A DNA stretch of 64,000 nucleotides from NCBI RefSeq assembly GCF_016026235.1, contig NZ_CP065613.1; one strand, written 5' to 3'. How positions within the stretch are numbered: position 1 is the first letter of the stretch; each line of letters begins with the position of its first letter. The stretch is from Escherichia coli. GTDB taxonomy: Bacteria; Pseudomonadota; Gammaproteobacteria; Enterobacterales; Enterobacteriaceae. Made by a program: the position numbers and the translations under genes. Shown here piece after piece: positions 51,616 to 59,065 of the stretch. A model generated the notes under the pieces. That model did not search any database, was not told the DNA's origin, and saw only the letters and a program-made list of their open reading frames with translations.

Positions 51616-52405
51616 TAATACTAGTGGGACTTCACAACCCGAGTCGCAAGTATGTGTAGTACCGCAAAAAATTACAAATAAATTTAAAATAATGATGAGT
51701 AAGGCTTGTAAAGCACAGAAAATGGTTTTATTGAAAAGAGCAGATGATATTATGTCATGGGAGGGGGAACAACAACGAGATTTTATTAAAGTTTTTGGCC
51801 TTAAAGGCGAGGACATTATAAAAATCAGAAAGGTTGGGGAAGATACTGGGAAACGAATGCAAGCGAGACTATTCATAATGGATGGCATCAGACGAATAAT
51901 GACGATTGCAAATGGTTTGACGATCGAAAGCTATAAAGATTATACGAACTGCAATGAATTTGCTGCTTTTATTAGTCCACATCTTGATCCTCCTTACATT
52001 GTAAATATCGGAGCGCATTTTGAATACAGACATGGTATAAAACAGTCGGTTACAGGTAGAGACTCTCATGTAAGTACACTTTGCCATGAAATGTCCCATA
52101 TATTTTGGTATTGGGGTGACAATCAAAAAGGTGGTATGTGGACTCAGGATTATACGGGTATTAATAAGTTCGCAACAAGTAATAAGGATGAAGTTAGCTA
52201 TGAGAAACATGTTTCAGTGGCTAATGATCTGGTTACATTGCGTAAAGATCAGTTATTTGAGAATGCATATAATGTTGAAAGATATTTTTATATAAAATTA
52301 AATGATGAAGATATTGAAGCTCAAGATGAGAATATGTTAGCAAAAAAAGTAGAGGATAAAATAAAAGAGATAGAAAAATGTTTTGATGAGTTGATGGGGA
52401 AATAA
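51602..52405 (+). CDS. VgrG-coupled HExxH protein, candidate zinc-metallopeptidase effector
   Basis: ATG 51602 overlaps the vgrG stop by 14 nt; 267 aa; HExxH in hydrophobic context (TLCHEMSHIFWYW) followed by WTQDYTG; low-GC cassette. Confidence 0.55.
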   Translation: MAGNNNTSGTSQPESQVCVVPQKITNKFKIMMSKACKAQKMVLLKRADDIMSWEGEQQRDFIKVFGLKGEDIIKIRKVGEDTGKRMQARLFIMDGIRRIMTIANGLTIESYKDYTNCNEFAAFISPHLDPPYIVNIGAHFEYRHGIKQSVTGRDSHVSTLCHEMSHIFWYWGDNQKGGMWTQDYTGINKFATSNKDEVSYEKHVSVANDLVTLRKDQLFENAYNVERYFYIKLNDEDIEAQDENMLAKKVEDKIKEIEKCFDELMGK

Positions 52406-52468
52406 GATGAAGAGGTTGGCTTTCTATAATCTAAATTATGTTGTACTGATGGTTTTTTTCTTTGTTTT

Positions 52469-53155
52469 TTGCCATTATCTATTGCAATTGCAATAGATAA
52501 TGAGAATCTTTTTGTAAAAAAATACAGATTCGGTTTTGAACGAAGAAGTGACAATGGGAAACCAATTATTTATCTTAGCCATAATTTAGCGCCAGAGGAA
52601 AATATAAGTAATGAATTAACAAATGATGTTGTTGTTAAATTGGTGGTTAAGCCACATGCTGAAAATATTTTAGCTACTATAACTTTTTATAACAGTAGTA
52701 CTAAATCGTATTTTCTCCCCAGAATATATTATCCAAAGAACTTCCAAAAAGGAAATGGAGATGTATTTGATGCTTTGTGTGATGACGAATTCTTGATTAC
52801 ATCAGGAAATATTAGCTTAGACTATCTAGGAGGCTTTTGTCCCTTTGAGCTTGATTTGAATTTGAGCCGATGGGTGGAAATTACGGCAGGTAAAAAAATA
52901 TCTTTTGATGTAAAATTGAATGATATGCATTCATTTCTCCCCAGTTTAAATAATTATCATATAAAAACATTAAACTACAAACTTGTTAGGAGAAAATGGT
53001 TTGTATTAAAATCAATTAATGAAACATTCCTCTCTATTTTGATGAAAAGATACTCATGTAATGAATATGATTTTAGAGCTATATCATTTAGTGGAGAGGG
53101 ATGTGATAATTATGAATTTGATAAAAATACGTTTTTTTTGTTAATCAAATATTAG
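52469..53155 (+). CDS. hypothetical protein, candidate cognate immunity/partner of the HExxH protein
   Basis: 228 aa ORF (TTG start in ORF track) directly downstream in a very AT-rich cassette; an upstream ATG at 52407 encodes a hydrophobic leader in a different frame. Confidence 0.4.
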   Translation: MPLSIAIAIDNENLFVKKYRFGFERRSDNGKPIIYLSHNLAPEENISNELTNDVVVKLVVKPHAENILATITFYNSSTKSYFLPRIYYPKNFQKGNGDVFDALCDDEFLITSGNISLDYLGGFCPFELDLNLSRWVEITAGKKISFDVKLNDMHSFLPSLNNYHIKTLNYKLVRRKWFVLKSINETFLSILMKRYSCNEYDFRAISFSGEGCDNYEFDKNTFFLLIKY

Positions 53156-53329
53156 ATAAAGATGATGAGCAACATTCTGTTCATATTAGGTCTAATGAAT
53201 TTTCCATCAATATCGATGGAAGCTTGGTAAAGCAACCTTATTGATTAAAATGTATCGCAGGTTTTATTTTCTGTAATGCTGGTGCATGTGCGTAAATATT
53301 TCTTAAGAGCCGGAAACACCTCTTCCGCC

Positions 53330-53732
53330 TTTATCGACGATAAACCTACCGCCAGAACCGGTGATGCCATTGACTGCGGTGGCGTGGTTAAAGGTGGCGG
53401 GCGATGTGGTGCTGGAGAGCAGCAGCCGGATAAGCCTGAAGGTGGGCGGTTCGTTTGTGGTCATCCATTCAGGGGGCGTGGACATCGTCGGGCCGAAAAT
53501 CAATCTCAATAGCGGCGGTAGTCCGGGAACGCCGGTGCCGACGCTGCAACCGGCGGTTCTGAAAGCGCTGGCAGATGATAAAAGTTTAGCGGCTGAGCAA
53601 AATGATAGTAATGCATCGTCCGATCAGAATGATAACAACGATGAGGGTGAGGAAGCGCCAGAAAAATCGGTGTGTAAGGAGTGCCTGAAAAGGGCGCAAG
53701 AAGCCGCCGCCGTTTTTGCGCCTCGTGGATAA
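53330..53732 (+). pseudogene. orphan vgrG 3' remnant
   Basis: 53394..53576 is a diverged repeat of vgrG 51109..51281 (...LESSSRISLKVGGSF(V/I)VI..GGVDI.GPKINLN.GGS.GTPV...) with a different C-terminal tail; no N-terminal vgrG body. Confidence 0.75.
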
Positions 53733-53738
53733 GGGAGA

Positions 53739-54509
53739 ATGACAATGATAACAGTATCGCCACACGCTACCGATCAAGACAAATATATTATCTGGCTGAA
53801 GCAAGCTGAATCATTCTGTTCTGCCGCTGGTTTGGATTACATAGATGTGCTTGTTGACCAGGCTGGAACCGACCAACCTTTGCAAAATGATATGCTTCAT
53901 CTGTGGCCAGCCATTCACTGGTATGCCCTGTTTGAAGGAACGCCTGAAGCTGAGACGATGGAGTATTCCCCTGTAGTGTTACGCCTGTACTTTGCGCTCA
54001 GTAGCCATCGCAAATTTCTGGCACAACTGATGGCGTCATTTGCTGATACGCCGCGTCTTACTTTGTTGATATCCCCTCTTACATTCGACCTGCTGGGGCG
54101 GCATCTTCAGGTATTGTCACAGGTTCAGTGGGAAGAACAGACCGGATTGCTGCGTTACTATGATAATCGGGTGTTCCCTTTACTGTTCACACATGTTTTG
54201 ACTAACGAGCAGCAGGCGACATTTACTGATATTGCGTTGTTCTGGAGCTGGTTAGACCGTGATGGTGAGATTAACTGGAAATCAGGAAGTTTTTCACCAG
54301 AACGCAGGCTTACTGACAACCCGGAGATGAATCGGGTGGATGATGTACAGGTGGGATTGATGGGCTGTATCTGCGACGCTGAAGTCCTGATGAAGGAGAA
54401 AGCAGTCAGTGAACTCAGTCAGGAAAGCTATTTTGCCCACTGTCTTGATATTGCTTTCAGAGCCAATGACGCGAAATATTTCGGAGCTTTGCGGGACTTC
54501 GAAGGATAA
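53739..54509 (+). CDS. putative T6SS effector adaptor (DUF4123/Tap-like by position and size)
   Basis: 256 aa ORF immediately after the vgrG remnant and upstream of the effector module; family assignment not verified. Confidence 0.4.
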   Translation: MTMITVSPHATDQDKYIIWLKQAESFCSAAGLDYIDVLVDQAGTDQPLQNDMLHLWPAIHWYALFEGTPEAETMEYSPVVLRLYFALSSHRKFLAQLMASFADTPRLTLLISPLTFDLLGRHLQVLSQVQWEEQTGLLRYYDNRVFPLLFTHVLTNEQQATFTDIALFWSWLDRDGEINWKSGSFSPERRLTDNPEMNRVDDVQVGLMGCICDAEVLMKEKAVSELSQESYFAHCLDIAFRANDAKYFGALRDFEG

Positions 54510-54822
54510 TATTGTGGTGATGTACGGGGAGATTTATCTGTTTAAAAGTCCGTAGCTGTTAATATCAAGAGATAATCGTGAAATAAACGGAAAATCAAGC
54601 TCGACATGTAATGGTAGTATCCATCATGTTGCATTTGTGTTCGATCGTAATGTCAGTTCACTTGGCTGCAATATATTTTGCGTAATATCATCAATGCTCT
54701 GTCGATATTCCAATGTGTGACAATCGAAAGATATGCATTTTATTTGCTTCTTTGTCAAAACTTTATTGTCGTAGAAACAATACCCATCAATTAAAATCTC
54801 TCAAAGTAAAAGAACCAGCAAC

Positions 54823-55377
54823 ATGTCCAGCAAAATAAGGAAAAGTATCAGTATGAGAGCGATTTTCAAATGTTATTCTCTAATGATTTTATTTGCAGTA
54901 TCAGGCTGTTCAATGGCAAAAAATAGCGGTGATTACACTGCTGTGGATATTAATGGGATAAATCATACGGATAAGGATATAAATTATATACACATCAATG
55001 GTTACGGCGGACCAAATATTGGCCCATTCGGAGACGGTGGAAGATATTGTTGCGTTATGCTGCCAGATAAGTGGCATTCTGGATTAAAAGCCCGAGTTGA
55101 GTGGGAGGTTGATCCAAATACAGCTCCTCTGCCTCCAGGCTATAAGGACAGGGAGAAATTTGAAGCATGGAAGAAAGTTGCGCTAAACAGTTTTAGAAAA
55201 TATTCAACAATTGTTGATATCCCGGAATATGATGCTGAGCTTTGTGGCCTGACCGTTCATTTTCTAACGTGTAATCAGATAAAAGTGACAACCGTCTGCC
55301 AGAAATATGGTACACCAAATTATCCTATCAAAGAACCCCGCGAGATGAAGGAACCAGCAACATGTCCAGCAAAATAA
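54823..55377 (+). CDS. lipoprotein, candidate Tle-family immunity protein (paralog 1)
   Basis: 184 aa with lipobox (FAVSGC); about 60% identical to the next ORF; conserved C-terminus ...IKEPREMKEPATCPAK. Confidence 0.6.
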   Translation: MSSKIRKSISMRAIFKCYSLMILFAVSGCSMAKNSGDYTAVDINGINHTDKDINYIHINGYGGPNIGPFGDGGRYCCVMLPDKWHSGLKARVEWEVDPNTAPLPPGYKDREKFEAWKKVALNSFRKYSTIVDIPEYDAELCGLTVHFLTCNQIKVTTVCQKYGTPNYPIKEPREMKEPATCPAK

Positions 55378-55904
55378 GAAATGGAATGAATATAACAAAA
55401 GTAGTTAAAGGCTGTCTGGTATTAATTTTGATGGTGATTTCGGGTTGCTCAGCAGCTAATTACGACGATTATACTGCAGGTGATCTCCGGGCAATAAATC
55501 ATATTAAAGGTATCAGTATTAATTGGTTCACCGTAAATGGTTATCGGGTCCATGGTTTGGGCGGTGGATATTGCTGCATAATGTTACCAGAGAAGTGGCA
55601 TTCTGGATTAAAAGCCCGGATCGAGTGGGAAGTAGACCCGAACCCCCTTGAACCTATTGCAATGAAAAAAGAAGGTTTTGGCTATGAAGAAGATGCTTAT
55701 GCTAAACATGCTGCAAATTATCAAAAATATAAAGTAATTGTTGATATCCCGGAATACGGCGCTGAACGTTGTGGCCTGACCGTTCATTTTCTGCCGTGTA
55801 ATCAGATTAAAGTGACAACCGTCTGCGAGGGCTATGGCACACCGAATTATCCTATCAAAGAACCCCGCGAGATGAAGGAACCTGCAACATGTCCAGCAAA
55901 ATAA
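55362..55904 (+). CDS. lipoprotein, candidate Tle-family immunity protein (paralog 2)
   Basis: 180 aa with lipobox (MVISGC); start overlaps stop of paralog 1 within the repeated motif ACATGTCCAGCAAAATAAG. Confidence 0.6.
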   Translation: MSSKIRNGMNITKVVKGCLVLILMVISGCSAANYDDYTAGDLRAINHIKGISINWFTVNGYRVHGLGGGYCCIMLPEKWHSGLKARIEWEVDPNPLEPIAMKKEGFGYEEDAYAKHAANYQKYKVIVDIPEYGAERCGLTVHFLPCNQIKVTTVCEGYGTPNYPIKEPREMKEPATCPAK

Positions 55905-57982
55905 GTGGTCTGGCTTTTCCGTGTTATGCCCCCCCGGTGTTCCCTGAAGATGGGCGATTAATATTATCTGAAGTGCAGGTAAACGCGAACTACCTAAAAC
56001 AAATCAATAAAACAGAGGAGCACAAAACCAACTGTAGTAAACAGGCTGGATTTAGAATTGGCTTTACGTGTAATCAAAGTCTGCATATTAGTCTGTTTTT
56101 TGATGGTACAAATAATAATGAATATAATGACACAAAAGTCTCTCATCCAACCAATATTGCGAAATTATTCCACACAAGTATCGAAGACCGTAATGCTGGG
56201 TATTTTTCCTATTACATACCTGGTGTAGGCACACCATTTCCCAAGATAGGTGAAATGGATTACAGCAACAGCGGACTGGAATTTGCCACCGGTGGTGAAG
56301 ACAGGATTAATTGGGCATTATTACGCCTCGTGGATGCTCTTAGCTATGCTATTGACCCTACCCAAAATGGGCTGAATGAGAAGGTGGCAAAAGAGCACAT
56401 TCCTGTCATGCGAGCTCACTGGCCGATGACTGGTGAAGTGAATCGTCGCAATGTGATTAACCCCTACCTGGAAAAATTACAGGGGCAGTTAGAACAAGCC
56501 AGTCCGCGCCTGCTAAACGTAAAGCTATTTATCTACGGATTTTCCCGTGGCGCAGCGGAAGCGCGAACCTTTGTTAACTGGTTGACTCAGTTAGCTTGCC
56601 CGCAGAGGCAACAGGTGATGCTGGCCGGTTTAGCTGTCAGTATTGAGTTTTTGGGGCTGCTGGATACCGTAGCTTCTGTGGGGGCGGCGCATGTTTTGCC
56701 GGGCGCTGCCGGTCATATGGGATGGGCCGATAGTACTCAGCAACTCCCTGATGAGCGGCACTTTCCCGGCCTGATTAAATGCTGTCGTCACTTCGTTGCC
56801 GCGCATGAGCAGCGGCTGTGCTTCCCGCTGGATTCAATCCGTCGTCCTGAAGGCAATTATCCTTTATATGCAGAGGAAGTGATCTATCCGGGGATGCACT
56901 CTGATGTCGGTGGTGGCTATCCCGTTTGCGATCAGGGGAAGTCCTGTGGAGGTCCAGATGAAATTCTCTCTCAAATTGCTCTGCATGATATGTATCTTGC
57001 GGCGTTTGATGAGGGCTCTCCATTATCAGTGCATCCTTTATTCATAACCAAAATGATAAAAGATATTTCACCATCAAGAGCTATGTCTGATTCATCAATT
57101 GCTGAATTTGTCATCGCTCCAATGTTGATTAAACGCTTCAACATCTGGCGTCAAGCGCTGCTGAACACCACCTTGCAGGGTACAGAAGAAATGATTGATA
57201 CGAGGGAAGGTTATCACTCCTATCAACTTGCCCAGGTTCTTGAAAGCGCAATTAGCGATCAGATCGGCTGGATCACCGCCTGGCGTATCGGTCGCTATGC
57301 GAATAACAGCCTTCTTGTGCAACCTTTTTATATTAAGGCGCCACAGCTGGATAAAGATGGACTTGATAAAGAGGCTAAAGCGCGTAAAGAACAAATGGAA
57401 AATATTGAAAAAGAACAGGCGAACAAGCAGAAAGGGAATGGCACACTTGATGAAAGTAATCAGGGCATTCCTATCCTTGACCCAACCAATGCTCAGTATC
57501 AGTTGCGAGAGGCAGCCCGAGAATTTCAGAGCGATTATAAAGGATGGACGCGCGATATTAACGGCAGCGTCATGGAGAAAGCCATTCAGATTCTTGTGGA
57601 TGTCATTCCTAAATATCCGGTGTATCTGATTAATGGCGATGATGAAGCAAAAGAATATCAGCAAATTAAGGCTATGGGAGACGGACTCTATCCACAATTT
57701 TTTATTGATTCACTGGGAACGGGAACGCGTACTCAGCCATGCGCTGAATTACTGGCTCTCTATGATGACCAGGTTCACGACTCCCGCGCCTGGTTTATGC
57801 AAAGTTCGCTGGGTGGACGCGAACCCTGGGGCGGTTATTTTCGCTACCGCATGATTTACTTCGGTGATGAGGCTAATAAAGAGCTGAAGCTAATCTCTGC
57901 AGATGGCAAAGTTGTTGGCGATCAGCCCACATCCAACCGGGTCATTTATTGGATGGAATCGAAAACGGTGAGCCGAGGTTAA
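55889..57982 (+). CDS. DUF2235-type alpha/beta-hydrolase, Tle1-family phospholipase effector candidate
   Basis: 697 aa; N-terminal FFDGTNNN motif and GxSxG lipase motif (GFSRG); start overlaps stop of lipoprotein paralog 2 by the same junction motif. Confidence 0.7.
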   Translation: MSSKISGLAFPCYAPPVFPEDGRLILSEVQVNANYLKQINKTEEHKTNCSKQAGFRIGFTCNQSLHISLFFDGTNNNEYNDTKVSHPTNIAKLFHTSIEDRNAGYFSYYIPGVGTPFPKIGEMDYSNSGLEFATGGEDRINWALLRLVDALSYAIDPTQNGLNEKVAKEHIPVMRAHWPMTGEVNRRNVINPYLEKLQGQLEQASPRLLNVKLFIYGFSRGAAEARTFVNWLTQLACPQRQQVMLAGLAVSIEFLGLLDTVASVGAAHVLPGAAGHMGWADSTQQLPDERHFPGLIKCCRHFVAAHEQRLCFPLDSIRRPEGNYPLYAEEVIYPGMHSDVGGGYPVCDQGKSCGGPDEILSQIALHDMYLAAFDEGSPLSVHPLFITKMIKDISPSRAMSDSSIAEFVIAPMLIKRFNIWRQALLNTTLQGTEEMIDTREGYHSYQLAQVLESAISDQIGWITAWRIGRYANNSLLVQPFYIKAPQLDKDGLDKEAKARKEQMENIEKEQANKQKGNGTLDESNQGIPILDPTNAQYQLREAAREFQSDYKGWTRDINGSVMEKAIQILVDVIPKYPVYLINGDDEAKEYQQIKAMGDGLYPQFFIDSLGTGTRTQPCAELLALYDDQVHDSRAWFMQSSLGGREPWGGYFRYRMIYFGDEANKELKLISADGKVVGDQPTSNRVIYWMESKTVSRG

Positions 57983-58238: not shown

Positions 58239-59065
58239 ATGGAACTTAAAAAATTGATGGAACATATTTCTATTATCCCCGATTACAGGCAAGCCTGGAA
58301 AGTGGAACATAAATTGCAGATATTCTATCTGTTAACTATTTGCGCCGTTATTTCTGGTGCATAATGCTGGGAAGATATAGAGGATTTGGGGAAACACAAC
58401 CCGATTTTTTGAAGTGATATGGTGATTTTGAAAATGGTATTCCTGTTCACGATATCATTGCCAGAGTTGTATCCTGTATCAGTCCTGAAAAATTTCATGA
58501 GTGCTTTATTAACTGGATGCGTGACTGTCATTCTTCAGATGATAAAGACGTCATTACAATTGATGGAAAAACGCTCCGGCACTCTTATGATAAAAGTCGT
58601 CACAAGGGAGCAATTTATGTCATTAAAATCCGTCTTCATATTGTTTGCATGTCTCTGATGAATTTATTGATTTTACGTTTGAATGGAAAGGGCTGAAGAA
58701 ATTATGCATGGCAGTCTCATTTCGCTCAATAATAGCAGAACAAAAGAAAAATCCCGAAATGACGGTCAGATATTATAGCATTTCTGCTGATTTAACCGCA
58801 GAGAAGTTCGCCACAGCGAACCGAAATCACTGGCAAGTGGAGAATAAATTGCACTGGCATCTGGACGTGGTAATGAATAAAGACGACTTTATAATAAGAA
58901 GATGAAATGCAACAGAATTATTTTCAGGGATACGGAACATCGCTATTAATATTTCAAAGAAAGATAAGATACTCAAGGCCGGGGCAAGATGTAAGATGTG
59001 AAAGCAGCTGCGGACAGAGACTACCTCGCGTCAGTCCTTTCGGGGGCGGGCTTTCGTAATCTTGC
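58239..59065 (+). pseudogene. yafF: H-repeat-associated (ISAs1-family) transposase remnant, yafF-like, multiply frameshifted
   Basis: [26 protein letters not shown]... then stops and frame changes; fragments in ORFs 58419..58658 and 58645..58905 and a C-terminal tail near 58920..59060. Confidence 0.6.

What the first reader, a model, noticed from the sequence alone, without database searches (positions are those of the whole stretch)
53330..53732. Orphan vgrG 3' remnant indicating effector-cassette replacement
A ~180-bp diverged copy of the vgrG beta-helix end (53394..53576 versus 51109..51281) lies 1.7 kb downstream of the intact vgrG, followed by a different C-terminal tail and then the adaptor-like gene and the Tle1-like module. 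This suggests the Tle1 module was the ancestral cargo of a vgrG whose body has been replaced by the present vgrG plus HExxH cassette through recombination at conserved vgrG 3' sequence.
Basis: seen in the sequence. Interest (0 to 1): 0.6.

Follow-up and report, generated by a model that had tools for sequence, protein, structure and literature searches.

The report
Orphaned VgrG spike tail, PAAR-fused
This is a real leftover piece of a type VI secretion spike gene in E. coli, fused to a scrap of a PAAR gene, and it shows how one toxin module was pushed aside by another; this kind of relic is already known, so it is useful but ordinary.

Summary
Window 53386-53578 is an ungapped 193-nt copy (77.7% identity, E=7e-40) of the vgrG end at 51101-51293, followed by a different tail.

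The piece 53389-53732 is the last ~114 codons of the VgrG that sits intact in front of tla1(DUF4123)-tli1a-tle1 at this same chromosomal site in about 55 other E. coli genomes (98% identity). NCBI's PGAP pipeline already annotates it as a VgrG pseudogene.

The remnant's 5' edge does not abut vgrG or cassette DNA. It abuts a 5'-truncated PAAR gene fragment (~53287-53388), joined out of frame with about 2 nt of microhomology. This is the footprint of a ~1.9-kb internal deletion in a PAAR-vgrG gene pair lying behind another spike/cargo module, as strain A22 still has. It is not a crossover in conserved vgrG 3' sequence.

A Salmonella contig carries an independent PAAR'::vgrG' fusion before the same module.

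All 12 of 5426 complete E. coli genomes with the M35-like cassette carry the same relic, and none has that tail at a second place detectable at DNA level (protein-level search not possible).

This is a new member of a known kind (displaced 3' ends, as in Vibrio vgrG-3 and Rhs). Interest is modest.

The parts
49216..51615 (+). Intact vgrG1 (799 aa) with a C-terminal ~110-aa cargo domain (motif FHFTDDDGIPYSET)
   Evidence: ORF. NCBIfam TIGR03361 at 595 bits. The same tail family occurs on the ~800-aa VgrGs that precede M35-like toxins in Buttiauxella and at the E. coli yncG locus.
51101..51293 (+). Repeat copy 1: the end of the vgrG1 beta-helix
   Evidence: blastn gives 193 nt, 77.7% identity, E=7e-40 against 53386-53578.
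51602..52405 (+). HExxH toxin (267 aa), the cargo of vgrG1; support for the 'M35-like' label is weak
   Evidence: ORF overlapping the vgrG1 stop. Pfam Aspzincin_M35 reaches only i-E=0.0022. There are no NCBIfam or PDB sequence hits. It is a rare family of 9 clusters.
52407..53246 (+). Putative immunity gene; in this window two homopolymer indels break it, leaving ORF 52469-53155
   Evidence: Full length is 279-283 aa in L001/L006; the indels lie at 52450 and 53131. Homology to the related module in L014 ends exactly at 53246.
53244..53276 (+). AT-rich 33-nt element just upstream of the PAAR fragment, probably shared with the Salmonella locus L031
   Evidence: Local alignment score 26 against shuffles of 16.3+-2.5, p about 0.008, and the same position relative to PAAR' in both loci. 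It was not detected by blastn-short.
53287..53388 (+). PAAR gene fragment (about codons 47-84 of ~91-94), truncated at both ends; its 5' half is decayed
   Evidence: NCBIfam T6SS_PAAR_dom positions 59-91/94, E=6.6e-9. Window 53325-53400 matches annotated PAAR genes in ~500 E. coli genomes at 80-84%. Alignment to the A22 PAAR.
53388..53390 (+). Junction J2 between PAAR' and vgrG': illegitimate, out of frame, about 2 nt (TA) of microhomology with a GGTGG motif nearby
   Evidence: Three-way register comparison and variable-column table.
53389..53732 (+). vgrG 3' remnant: codons ~629-743 of the Tla1-linked VgrG (last beta-helix turns, acidic/Asn-rich linker, conserved tail, stop codon)
   Evidence: The match of window 53386-54529 (remnant + tla1) to A22 vgrG2 + DUF4123 is 97% identical. 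Positions 53409-53732 differ at 6 of 324 sites from A22. PGAP annotates the equivalent of 53388-53732 as 'VgrG, incomplete, missing N-terminus'.
53409..53446 (+). 38-nt block identical to 51124-51161, the longest perfect homology between the two copies
53364..53732 (+). Open frame (122 aa from the ATG; 123 from the GTG at 53361) that starts inside PAAR' in its +1 frame and runs through the remnant; no evidence of expression
   Evidence: ORF list. The Salmonella fusion has the same MPLTAV(A/V)WL start in frame (P0024). No strong ribosome-binding site or promoter signal.
53658..53729 (+). Conserved C-terminal tail PEKSVCKECLKRAQEAAAVFAPRG, the presumed docking site for Tla1/Tle1
   Evidence: Conserved in Escherichia, Salmonella and Superficieibacter tails while the linker varies. 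By analogy, the last 20 residues of P. aeruginosa VgrG4a dock Tla1 and Tle1 (PMC13133936).
53739..54509 (+). tla1 (DUF4123 adaptor/chaperone); its start lies 6 nt after the remnant's stop, with GGGAGA in between
   Evidence: NCBIfam NF053803 Tla1 equivalog, 218.3 bits against a cut-off of 200. Sequence read directly.
54823..55904 (+). Two tandem tli1a (DUF3304) immunity genes (54823-55377 and 55362-55904)
   Evidence: NCBIfam NF053804, 207.7 and 201.8 bits against a cut-off of 110. Repeat families D2-D4.
55889..57982 (+). tle1 phospholipase effector (697 aa), intact
   Evidence: Pfam T6SS_Tle1-like_cat and _C on identical homologues. PDB 4O5P (P. aeruginosa Tle1) E=1.9e-116; EAEC Tle1 6SJL_D only E=4e-7.

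Best explanation
Window 53389-53732 is a dead relic. It is the last ~114 codons of the VgrG spike gene that natively precedes the tla1 (DUF4123 adaptor) - tli1a (immunity) - tle1 (phospholipase) module at this site of the E. coli T6SS-1 locus.

It is fused, out of frame and without meaningful homology, to a fragment of a PAAR gene (~53287-53388). PAAR-vgrG is a standard adjacent gene pair, and the order and orientation are preserved here. The simplest history is therefore a two-spike array: hcp - vgrG1(cargo-domain tail) - HExxH toxin - immunity - PAAR - vgrG2 - tla1 - tli - tle1, comparable to strain A22. In that array an illegitimate ~1.9-kb deletion removed the end of PAAR and codons 1-628 of vgrG2.

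The finished block (vgrG1 tail through tla1) then spread among E. coli lineages by ordinary homologous recombination, with arms in the vgrG core on the left and in tli/tle1 on the right.

Consequence (inferred): the conserved C-terminal docking tail for Tla1/Tle1 now exists only on a fragment that cannot join a spike. Tle1 is probably no longer loaded, while the tli immunity genes remain useful.

What is shown: the homology, the junctions, the intact counterparts and the distribution. What is inferred: the order of events, the loss of Tle1 delivery, and the mode of spread.
For: (1) Intact counterparts exist at the same site. M-17 and FDAARGOS_144 have hcp-vgrG(743 aa)-DUF4123-DUF3304x3-Tle1. 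A22 has vgrG1-2 ORFs-ISAs1'-PAAR-vgrG2-DUF4123-.... The tail/tla1 junction occurs in 67 of 5426 genomes, once per genome, and the 12 cassette carriers among them are annotated there as a VgrG pseudogene.

(2) The remnant is 98% identical to those intact alleles over 53409-53732, with no indel or stop.

(3) The sequence directly 5' is PAAR: NCBIfam E=6.6e-9 and matches to PAAR genes in ~500 genomes. In A22 coordinates the joint links PAAR nt ~7064 to vgrG2 nt ~8998, which is 1.93 kb removed from a collinear PAAR-vgrG pair.

(4) A second, independent case exists. Salmonella contig L031 has PAAR'(codons 47-83)::vgrG'(from codon ~578)-DUF4123-DUF3304x2, with different upstream cargo but the same PAAR 5' truncation point.

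(5) All 12 genomes with the cassette carry the relic, and so do the further contigs that were aligned across it. The block 51200-54800 is nearly invariant among carriers, while the vgrG core differs by up to 21 per 200 nt and tli/tle1 differ by ~5%.

(6) The module is of the P. aeruginosa Tle1/Tla1 type: Tla1 equivalog above its cut-off and Tle1 vs 4O5P at E=1.9e-116. In that system the last 20 residues of the VgrG extension dock the adaptor and the toxin (PMC13133936). The corresponding motif is conserved across genera.

(7) Some carriers show decay of the module: tla1 truncated with tle1 lost (L015/L016), tle1 split (L020), and IS600/IS1A insertions in FDAARGOS_943.
Against: (1) No genome with the predicted precursor (M35 cassette followed by an intact PAAR-vgrG2) was found in 5426 complete E. 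coli genomes or in the contigs holding the toxin.

(2) The PAAR fragment is only 80-84% identical to any E. coli PAAR, whereas the vgrG part is 98%. The two pieces therefore differ in age or origin.

(3) The first ~20 nt of the remnant (53389-53408) carry 5 mismatches to A22 vgrG2. No vgrG copy outside the carriers, among the 640 E. coli genomes that hold a match, exceeds 90.3% identity over 53389-53450. This fits a donor-derived stretch better than a plain in-situ deletion.

(4) The E. coli and Salmonella PAAR-side end points lie only ~6 nt apart, which random deletions do not predict.

(5) Most carriers keep tla1, tli and tle1, so loss of Tle1 function is not demonstrated.

Confidence: 0.6

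Rival explanations
1. One-step insertion into a single vgrG. An M-17/FDAARGOS_144-like ancestor (hcp-vgrG-tla1-tli-tle1) received a 2285-bp piece (vgrG tail' - HExxH toxin - immunity - PAAR' - a few vgrG codons). The route was either homology-facilitated illegitimate recombination or Campbell-type integration of a circularised fragment through the conserved 38-nt block. This split the resident gene into a re-tailed body and an orphan tail. It is closest to what the first reader proposed.
For: The two copies are in exact register 2285 nt apart and share the 38-nt perfect block. In vgrG1, identity to E. coli paralogues falls from ~96% to ~76% right after that block. In the remnant, the ~20 nt before the block are unlike any other E. 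coli allele and the sequence after it is 98% E. coli-like. This is the reciprocal pattern expected of a crossover in the block. No two-spike precursor was found. The hcp-vgrG1 junction and the vgrG1 5' end are 97-100% identical to M-17. Kirchberger et al. propose this mechanism for Vibrio vgrG-3 (PMC5361080).
Against: The drop in identity after the block is a general core/tail boundary seen between any two vgrG alleles, so it is not a mapped crossover. The model needs a donor fragment that already ended in a doubly truncated PAAR, or a circularisation step with no known precedent here. Salmonella L031 shares the PAAR 5' truncation and upstream element but has other cargo and another vgrG break point. 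That is easier to explain if leader-PAAR'-vgrG2 was a resident structure.
Confidence: 0.22
2. The composite, including both junctions, formed in another enterobacterial lineage. It entered E. coli ready-made by double homologous crossover, left in the vgrG core and right in the remnant's conserved block or further downstream.
For: The cassette has 26-38% GC against 55-62% for vgrG. It is absent from other E. coli. Its relatives are in Buttiauxella and in unidentified AT-rich arrays. The PAAR' allele is foreign-looking. The variant KVEGDVVLESS at the remnant's start is seen in Salmonella vgrG fragments. A Salmonella locus has the same kind of fusion.
Against: Two scans of 100,044 species-representative genomes found neither the toxin (close patterns) nor a PAAR encoding FIDDKPTARTGDA. 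No donor is known. The remnant tail and tla1 are E. coli-like (97-98%).
Confidence: 0.12
3. The fragment is not debris but a retained small gene. The 122-aa ORF (53364-53732) would make a free VgrG tail that binds Tla1/Tle1 or keeps tla1 translated. Alternatively, the direct repeats would act as a switch that can delete the HExxH cassette and rebuild a Tle1-carrying spike.
For: The frame is open and free of indels in all carriers compared. Two independent fusions (E. coli and Salmonella) are both in frame with the same ATG inside PAAR'. The stop lies 6 nt before the tla1 start, with the ribosome-binding site inside the ORF end. A 193-nt direct repeat with a 38-nt perfect block is present. Most carriers keep the Tle1 module.
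Against: In-frame joining twice has about a 1-in-9 chance probability. There is no convincing ribosome-binding site or promoter. Gene callers pick different starts. Polymorphism is too low (4 sites) to test selection. Several carriers have lost or broken the module. A fragment lacking the gp27/gp5 core cannot be part of a spike (established T6SS knowledge).
Confidence: 0.06

Closest known systems
Displaced effector 3' ends and orphan immunity arrays in Vibrio cholerae T6SS clusters (Kirchberger et al. 2017, PMC5361080)
   Same: A new effector-immunity module with a stretch of conserved vgrG enters the cluster. The old 3' end and its downstream genes are pushed behind it and retained. Homologous anchoring plus an illegitimate joint is the proposed mechanism.
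   Different: Here the displaced unit is a whole adaptor-immunity-effector module with its toxin still intact, not just immunity genes. The relic's 5' edge is a PAAR gene fragment, which points to an intermediate with two complete spikes. The host is E. coli T6SS-1.
Orphan rhs C-terminal tips in Enterobacteriaceae (cited in PMC5361080; Koskiniemi et al. 2014, recalled from my own knowledge)
   Same: These are 5'-truncated copies of a polymorphic gene's 3' end. They keep a short stretch of conserved sequence plus a variable tip, lie downstream of the full gene, and are followed by cognate immunity. The shared stretch can recombine to reactivate the orphan.
   Different: A VgrG tail is a docking site for a separate adaptor and toxin, not a toxin itself. 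Reactivation by repeat recombination is untested here.
P. aeruginosa VgrG4a-Tla1-Tle1-Tli1a system (Lefebvre et al. 2026, PMC13133936; PDB 4O5P)
   Same: The module type is the same: Tla1 equivalog above its cut-off, Tli1a family, and Tle1 at E=1.9e-116 to 4O5P. The VgrG has a flexible C-terminal extension ending in a short conserved segment.
   Different: In the window the VgrG carrying that extension is reduced to its last 114 codons. Docking by the E. coli tail is inferred, not tested.
EAEC Sci-1 VgrG-Tle1 (PDB 6SJL)
   Same: It is an E. coli T6SS-1 spike that delivers a Tle1-family phospholipase through a C-terminal VgrG domain.
   Different: The relation is only distant: Tle1 E=4e-7 and the VgrG core E=1e-26. 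As far as I recall, the EAEC system uses direct binding to a VgrG C-terminal domain without a DUF4123 adaptor.

Membership tests
VgrG/TssI spike protein (functional gene) | N-terminal gp27-like and gp5-like core (TIGR03361 / TIGR01646) | tested here: not met
   The remnant ORF gets no NCBIfam hit, while vgrG1 scores 595 bits. Only residues equivalent to 630-689 of VgrG1 align.
VgrG/TssI spike protein (functional gene) | Uninterrupted reading frame from a vgrG start codon | tested here: not met
   Upstream of 53389 the sequence is PAAR-derived in another frame, and the vgrG frame has a stop at ~53303. PGAP flags the gene as 'missing N-terminus'.
Orphan/displaced 3' fragment of a polymorphic T6SS gene (Vibrio vgrG-3 / Rhs type) | Homology to the 3' conserved part of a full-length paralogue located upstream in the same locus | tested here: met
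   193 nt, 77.7% identity, E=7e-40.
Orphan/displaced 3' fragment of a polymorphic T6SS gene (Vibrio vgrG-3 / Rhs type) | Intact version of the same allele exists elsewhere with the same downstream genes | tested here: met
   About 55 E. coli genomes have an intact vgrG + tla1-tli-tle1 at the same site, at 98% identity.
Orphan/displaced 3' fragment of a polymorphic T6SS gene (Vibrio vgrG-3 / Rhs type) | Lies behind the effector-immunity pair of the full-length gene and in front of its own cognate module | tested here: met
   The gene order is vgrG1 - HExxH toxin - immunity - relic - tla1 - tli - tle1.
Orphan/displaced 3' fragment of a polymorphic T6SS gene (Vibrio vgrG-3 / Rhs type) | Formed by a homologous crossover in the conserved part plus one illegitimate joint | tested here: inconclusive
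   An illegitimate joint is shown at 53388/53390. The homologous crossover cannot be mapped because the vgrG core is a mosaic. The PAAR fragment suggests a deletion route instead.
PAAR protein (for 53287-53388) | Complete ~90-aa PAAR domain | tested here: not met
   Only profile positions 59-91 of 94 match, at 35.8 bits against a cut-off of 124. The PAAR motif itself reads PTAR.
Tla1-Tli1a-Tle1 effector module | DUF4123 adaptor matching the Tla1 equivalog model above its cut-off | tested here: met
   218.3 bits against 200.
Tla1-Tli1a-Tle1 effector module | Tle1-type phospholipase and Tli1a-type immunity | tested here: met
   Tle1 vs 4O5P E=1.9e-116. Pfam Tle1-like catalytic and C domains on identical homologues. 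Tli1a_fam at 207.7 and 201.8 bits against 110.
Tla1-Tli1a-Tle1 effector module | A full-length VgrG whose C-terminal extension docks Tla1 and Tle1 | tested here: not met
   The tail exists only on the relic, and each carrier has one place with this tail at DNA level. Binding itself is not testable with these tools.

The most novel reading that the evidence does not exclude
The PAAR'::vgrG' fusion is kept for a reason. Two independent fusions (E. coli and Salmonella) both place the vgrG tail in frame with an ATG inside the PAAR scrap. The resulting small protein, or simply its translation, may keep tla1-tli-tle1 expressed or hold the Tla1-Tle1 complex. In addition, the 193-nt direct repeats (with a 38-nt perfect block) may let cells delete the 2285-bp HExxH cassette by RecA recombination and rebuild a Tle1-armed spike. 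That would be a reversible choice of weapon comparable to orphan Rhs activation.
Probability: 0.12. Interest if true: 0.6.

Novelty: new member of a known kind. Interest (0 to 1): 0.3.

Why it matters
It gives a clean, datable example in E. coli of how T6SS weapon sets are rebuilt. A spike and its cargo are added in front of an older module, and the older spike is then destroyed, leaving its docking tail, adaptor, immunity genes and toxin behind.

The carriers are a natural experiment for two open practical questions. First, is a VgrG's C-terminal tail strictly required, in cis on a full spike, for adaptor-dependent toxin loading? Second, are displaced modules kept for their immunity genes?

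The PAAR scrap at the joint is also a useful marker for annotators. It shows that such relics can arise by deletion inside PAAR-vgrG pairs and not only by crossover within vgrG.

None of this changes how T6SS evolution is understood.

Tried and rejected
(1) A search for the toxin module in 100,044 species-representative genomes found nothing with close peptide patterns. A degenerate DNA pattern for a PAAR encoding FIDDKPTARTGDA also found nothing. No donor was identified.

(2) I suspected that contig L014 ended in another PAAR'-vgrG' joint (peptide LIKGDIL). The longer contig L025 shows unrelated sequence there, so I rejected this.

(3) Many short 'VgrG C-terminal' proteins in the big protein collection looked like further relics. 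The three that were checked were either contig-edge partials or frameshifted full genes, not orphan tails. Only P0024 (Salmonella) is a true PAAR'::vgrG' fusion. A second protein search with the PAAR-frame N-terminus found no more.

(4) Mapping the left crossover by sliding identity against A22, M-17 and the yncG-locus vgrG gave only a mosaic.

(5) The promoter/terminator scan of 52900-53900 was at chance level. Rfam gave no hit in 51000-55000.

(6) In-situ tandem duplication is rejected: the copies are 22% diverged with mostly synonymous changes, and the relic is 98% identical to intact alleles in other strains.

(7) Assembly artefact is rejected: the same structure is present in 12 independent complete genomes and in the further contigs that were aligned across it.

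(8) The 'transthyretin-like' nature of the vgrG1 tail got no Pfam support and was not tested by structure prediction. I therefore call it only a shared cargo-domain tail.
Full report
**Setting.** The region is the variable end of an E. coli T6SS-1 cluster. The gene order is:
- tssC (45765-47249, minus strand) and tssB (47272-47775, minus strand)
- hcp (48477-48995)
- vgrG1 (49216-51615, 799 aa)
- an HExxH protein (51602-52405)
- a putative immunity gene (52407-53246 in full-length form)
- the finding itself
- a DUF4123 gene (53739-54509)
- two DUF3304 genes (54823-55904)
- a 697-aa Tle1-like gene (55889-57982)
- ISAs1 debris

In related genomes yafV-ivy-fadE follow. The window is 100% identical over vgrG1 and the cassette to E. 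coli FDAARGOS_943, but it lacks that strain's IS insertions.

**Observation.** blastn of 53330-53732 against the whole window finds one non-self match. It is 53386-53578 vs 51101-51293: 193 nt, ungapped, 77.7% identity, E=7e-40.
- The copies lie 2285 nt apart and share one 38-nt perfect block (51124-51161 = 53409-53446).
- At protein level the match is 80% over 60 residues, E=2e-29.
- Of 35 differing codons, 21 are synonymous. These are two old alleles of a functional sequence, not a recent duplication.
- After 53578 the tails are unrelated. vgrG1 continues into an acidic linker and a ~110-aa domain (FHFTDDDGIPYSET...). The second copy continues into an Asn/Asp-rich linker and ends ...PEKSVCKECLKRAQEAAAVFAPRG.

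**What the fragment is.**
- In the related genomes examined, PGAP annotates the equivalent of 53388-53732 as 'type VI secretion system tip protein VgrG, incomplete, missing N-terminus'.
- The tail together with the start of the DUF4123 gene occurs in 67 of 5426 complete E. coli genomes, once per genome.
- In the 12 that carry the HExxH cassette it is the fragment. In the others it is the end of a full 743-aa vgrG, or in two strains an IS21-split one.
- M-17 and FDAARGOS_144 have hcp-vgrG-DUF4123-DUF3304x3-Tle1 at the same chromosomal place.
- A22 has hcp-vgrG1-two ORFs-ISAs1'-PAAR-vgrG2-DUF4123-DUF3304x3-Tle1.
- The match of window 53386-54529 (remnant + tla1) to the A22 vgrG2 end plus DUF4123 is 97% identical. 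Within 53409-53732 only 6 of 324 positions differ, and there is no indel or stop.

The fragment is therefore the last ~114 codons (about 629-743) of the VgrG that belongs to the Tle1 module.

**The downstream module.**
- The DUF4123 protein passes NCBI's Tla1 equivalog model (218 bits against a cut-off of 200).
- Both DUF3304 proteins are Tli1a family.
- The effector matches the P. aeruginosa Tle1 structure 4O5P at E=1.9e-116, but the EAEC Tle1 (6SJL) only at E=4e-7.
- For the P. aeruginosa system, Lefebvre et al. (PMC13133936) showed by co-purification, two-hybrid assays and mutagenesis that the last ~20 residues of the VgrG4a C-terminal extension dock both Tla1 and Tle1.
- The last ~25 residues of the tail studied here are conserved in Escherichia, Salmonella and Superficieibacter, while the linker before them varies.
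- In Superficieibacter the same tail precedes DUF4123-DUF3304-Tle1.

I infer, but cannot test, that this tail is the docking site. VgrG1 lacks the motif, and no second copy of the tail is detectable at DNA level in any carrier.

**What lies at the 5' edge.** Upstream of 53389 the sequence is neither vgrG nor cassette. It is a PAAR gene fragment.
- The ORF 53276-53512 matches NCBIfam T6SS_PAAR_dom positions 59-91 of 94 (E=6.6e-9).
- Window 53325-53400 matches annotated PAAR genes in about 500 E. coli genomes at 80-84%.
- Aligned to the A22 PAAR, the homology runs from about codon 47 (HPPHPRKI) to codon ~84.
- Its 3' half differs from E. coli PAARs only at synonymous sites. Its 5' half is badly degraded, and the PAAR motif reads PTAR.
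- A three-way register comparison places the PAAR/vgrG joint between 53388 (PAAR-like T) and 53390 (vgrG-like A). Only 'TA' is shared and a GGTGG lies nearby. The two reading frames do not match.

PAAR followed 18 nt later by vgrG is a standard gene pair (A22, GF60 and L010). A PAAR piece directly 5' of a vgrG piece, in the same order and orientation, is what an internal deletion of such a pair leaves. In A22 coordinates the deletion would be ~1.93 kb.

**An independent second case.** Among short proteins similar to the remnant, P0024 from Salmonella enterica starts with MPLTAVVWL. This is the +1-frame reading of the PAAR 3' end, the same as in the window ORF (MPLTAVAWL). Its contig L031 reads: three small low-GC ORFs - PAAR'(codons 47-83) fused to vgrG'(from codon ~578) - DUF4123 - DUF3304 - DUF3304.
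- The vgrG-side break differs from the window by ~150 nt.
- The PAAR-side break differs by only ~6 nt.
- The PAAR 5' truncation point is the same.
- A 33-nt AT-rich element just upstream appears shared (Smith-Waterman p about 0.008; not seen by blastn-short).
- The cargo genes upstream are unrelated.

This argues that 'element-PAAR'-vgrG2-tla1...' once existed as a resident structure and lost most of vgrG2 at least twice. Why the PAAR-side end points nearly coincide is unexplained. Possibilities are a hot spot, or selection for an in-frame start that preserves translation into tla1, whose ribosome-binding site and ATG sit 1-9 nt after the remnant's stop.

**The cassette in front.**
- The HExxH protein is a rare family of nine clusters. 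It has only a weak Pfam Aspzincin_M35 hit (i-E 0.0022) and no NCBIfam or PDB sequence match.
- Where the preceding gene could be seen, the toxin follows a ~800-aa VgrG with the same tail domain and is followed by a ~270-aa protein. This holds in Buttiauxella and at the E. coli yncG locus. An AT-rich array has the toxin and its ~270-aa partner, but the contigs start at the toxin.
- Homology to the AT-rich relative stops exactly at the immunity stop codon, 53246.
- GC content is 26-38% across 51500-53300, against 55-62% in vgrG.
- In E. coli the cassette occurs in 12 of 5426 complete genomes, always with the relic. The further contigs that were aligned across the region carry it too.

**Spread and mosaicism.**
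- Among carriers, 51200-54800 is almost invariant (0-4 differences per 200 nt).
- The vgrG1 core 49400-51200 differs by up to 21 per 200 nt, and tli/tle1 differ by ~5%.
- The finished composite therefore moved between lineages by homologous recombination, or the core is continually converted by paralogous vgrG copies.
- Either way, the original left crossover cannot be mapped.
- The first ~20 nt of the remnant (KV(A/E)GDVV) match no other E. coli vgrG well. The best non-carrier is 90.3% over 53389-53450, among the 640 genomes holding a vgrG match.
- That variant occurs in Salmonella vgrG fragments.

This keeps two rivals alive: a one-step insertion or Campbell-type event through the 38-nt block, and import of a ready-made composite from another genus.

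**Consequences.** Most carriers keep tla1, at least one tli, and tle1. Some show decay:
- tla1 truncated by an IS, with tli and tle1 gone (L015/L016)
- tle1 split (L020)
- IS600 and IS1A insertions in FDAARGOS_943

Non-carriers also show lesions, so this is suggestive only. Retention of tli fits the Vibrio model, in which displaced immunity genes protect against kin that still fire the old toxin (PMC5361080).

**Comparison with what is known.** Kirchberger et al. describe this class of event for V. cholerae. A module with a stretch of conserved vgrG enters, the old 3' end and immunity genes are shifted downstream, and homology-facilitated illegitimate recombination is the suggested mechanism. 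They point to the analogous 'orphaned 3' regions' of rhs loci. The present case is a further member of that kind, in E. coli T6SS-1. It has two local particulars: a complete adaptor-immunity-toxin module is stranded, and the joint runs through a PAAR gene. My literature searches found no description of PAAR'::vgrG' relics, but the library is partial.

**Verdict.** The feature is real and it is a pseudogene relic. It is not supported on the mechanism of the joint.
- Confidence that it is the orphaned tail of the Tla1/Tle1-linked VgrG: about 0.95.
- Confidence in the two-spike-then-deletion route: about 0.55-0.6.
- Confidence that Tle1 is no longer delivered: about 0.5.
- Interest: modest (0.3).

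Noticed in passing
window 52407-53246: The putative immunity gene behind the HExxH toxin varies among carriers at two homopolymer sites (a G at 52450 and a T at 53131). This gives ORFs of 241-283 codons. The window has the short state at both sites, so the hydrophobic N-terminal leader and the C-terminal end are out of frame. This is either a broken immunity gene next to an intact toxin, or homopolymer sequencing error.
   Followed up: partly
window 54780-55905: The tandem tli1a (DUF3304) genes have a 31-nt unit (AAGGAACCAGCAACATGTCCAGCAAAATAAG) at every gene boundary (54809, 55348, 55875). There is also a 3' stub of a further copy (ORF 54713-54838, ending KEPATCPAK). Copy number ranges from 1 to 3 among strains, which fits unequal crossing-over.
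   Followed up: partly
window 49400-51200: The vgrG1 core is a hot spot of variation among strains that share an otherwise near-identical locus, with up to 21 differences per 200 nt against 0-3 in hcp, tssBC and the cassette. This suggests frequent gene conversion with paralogous vgrG copies.
   Followed up: partly
L031 1574-2189 (Salmonella enterica GCA_029668525.1): This is an independent PAAR'::vgrG' fusion in front of DUF4123-DUF3304x2. The vgrG break point differs (codon ~578). The PAAR-side end point is nearly the same, and the in-frame ATG inside PAAR' is the same.
   Followed up: yes
L012 (FDAARGOS_943) and L015, L016, L020: Carriers show separate lesions of the stranded module. FDAARGOS_943 has IS600 between the relic and tla1, IS1A in tli, and IS21 in tssC. 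L015/L016 have tla1 truncated next to an IS3-family element, with tli and tle1 absent. L020 has tle1 split into two ORFs.
   Followed up: partly
L025 3500-8770 and L014: An AT-rich relative of the toxin-immunity module (68% nt identity) sits in a decayed array. The array holds three more small genes, a degenerate PAAR with an internal deletion, a group II intron reverse-transcriptase fragment, and a frameshifted vgrG with the same FHFTDDDG(I/L)PYSET tail. The organism is not identified.
   Followed up: partly
P0065 (Logan contig, 17 kb): A 112-aa ORF joins sequence antisense to tssC (compare window ORF 46818-47093) to a vgrG 3' end. This looks like a relic of a larger deletion spanning tssC to vgrG.
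   Followed up: no
window 58239-59060: Frameshifted ISAs1-family transposase fragments lie downstream of tle1. They are conserved at the same place in all compared strains, carriers and non-carriers alike. A22 also has such a fragment between its two spike modules, directly in front of PAAR.
   Followed up: no
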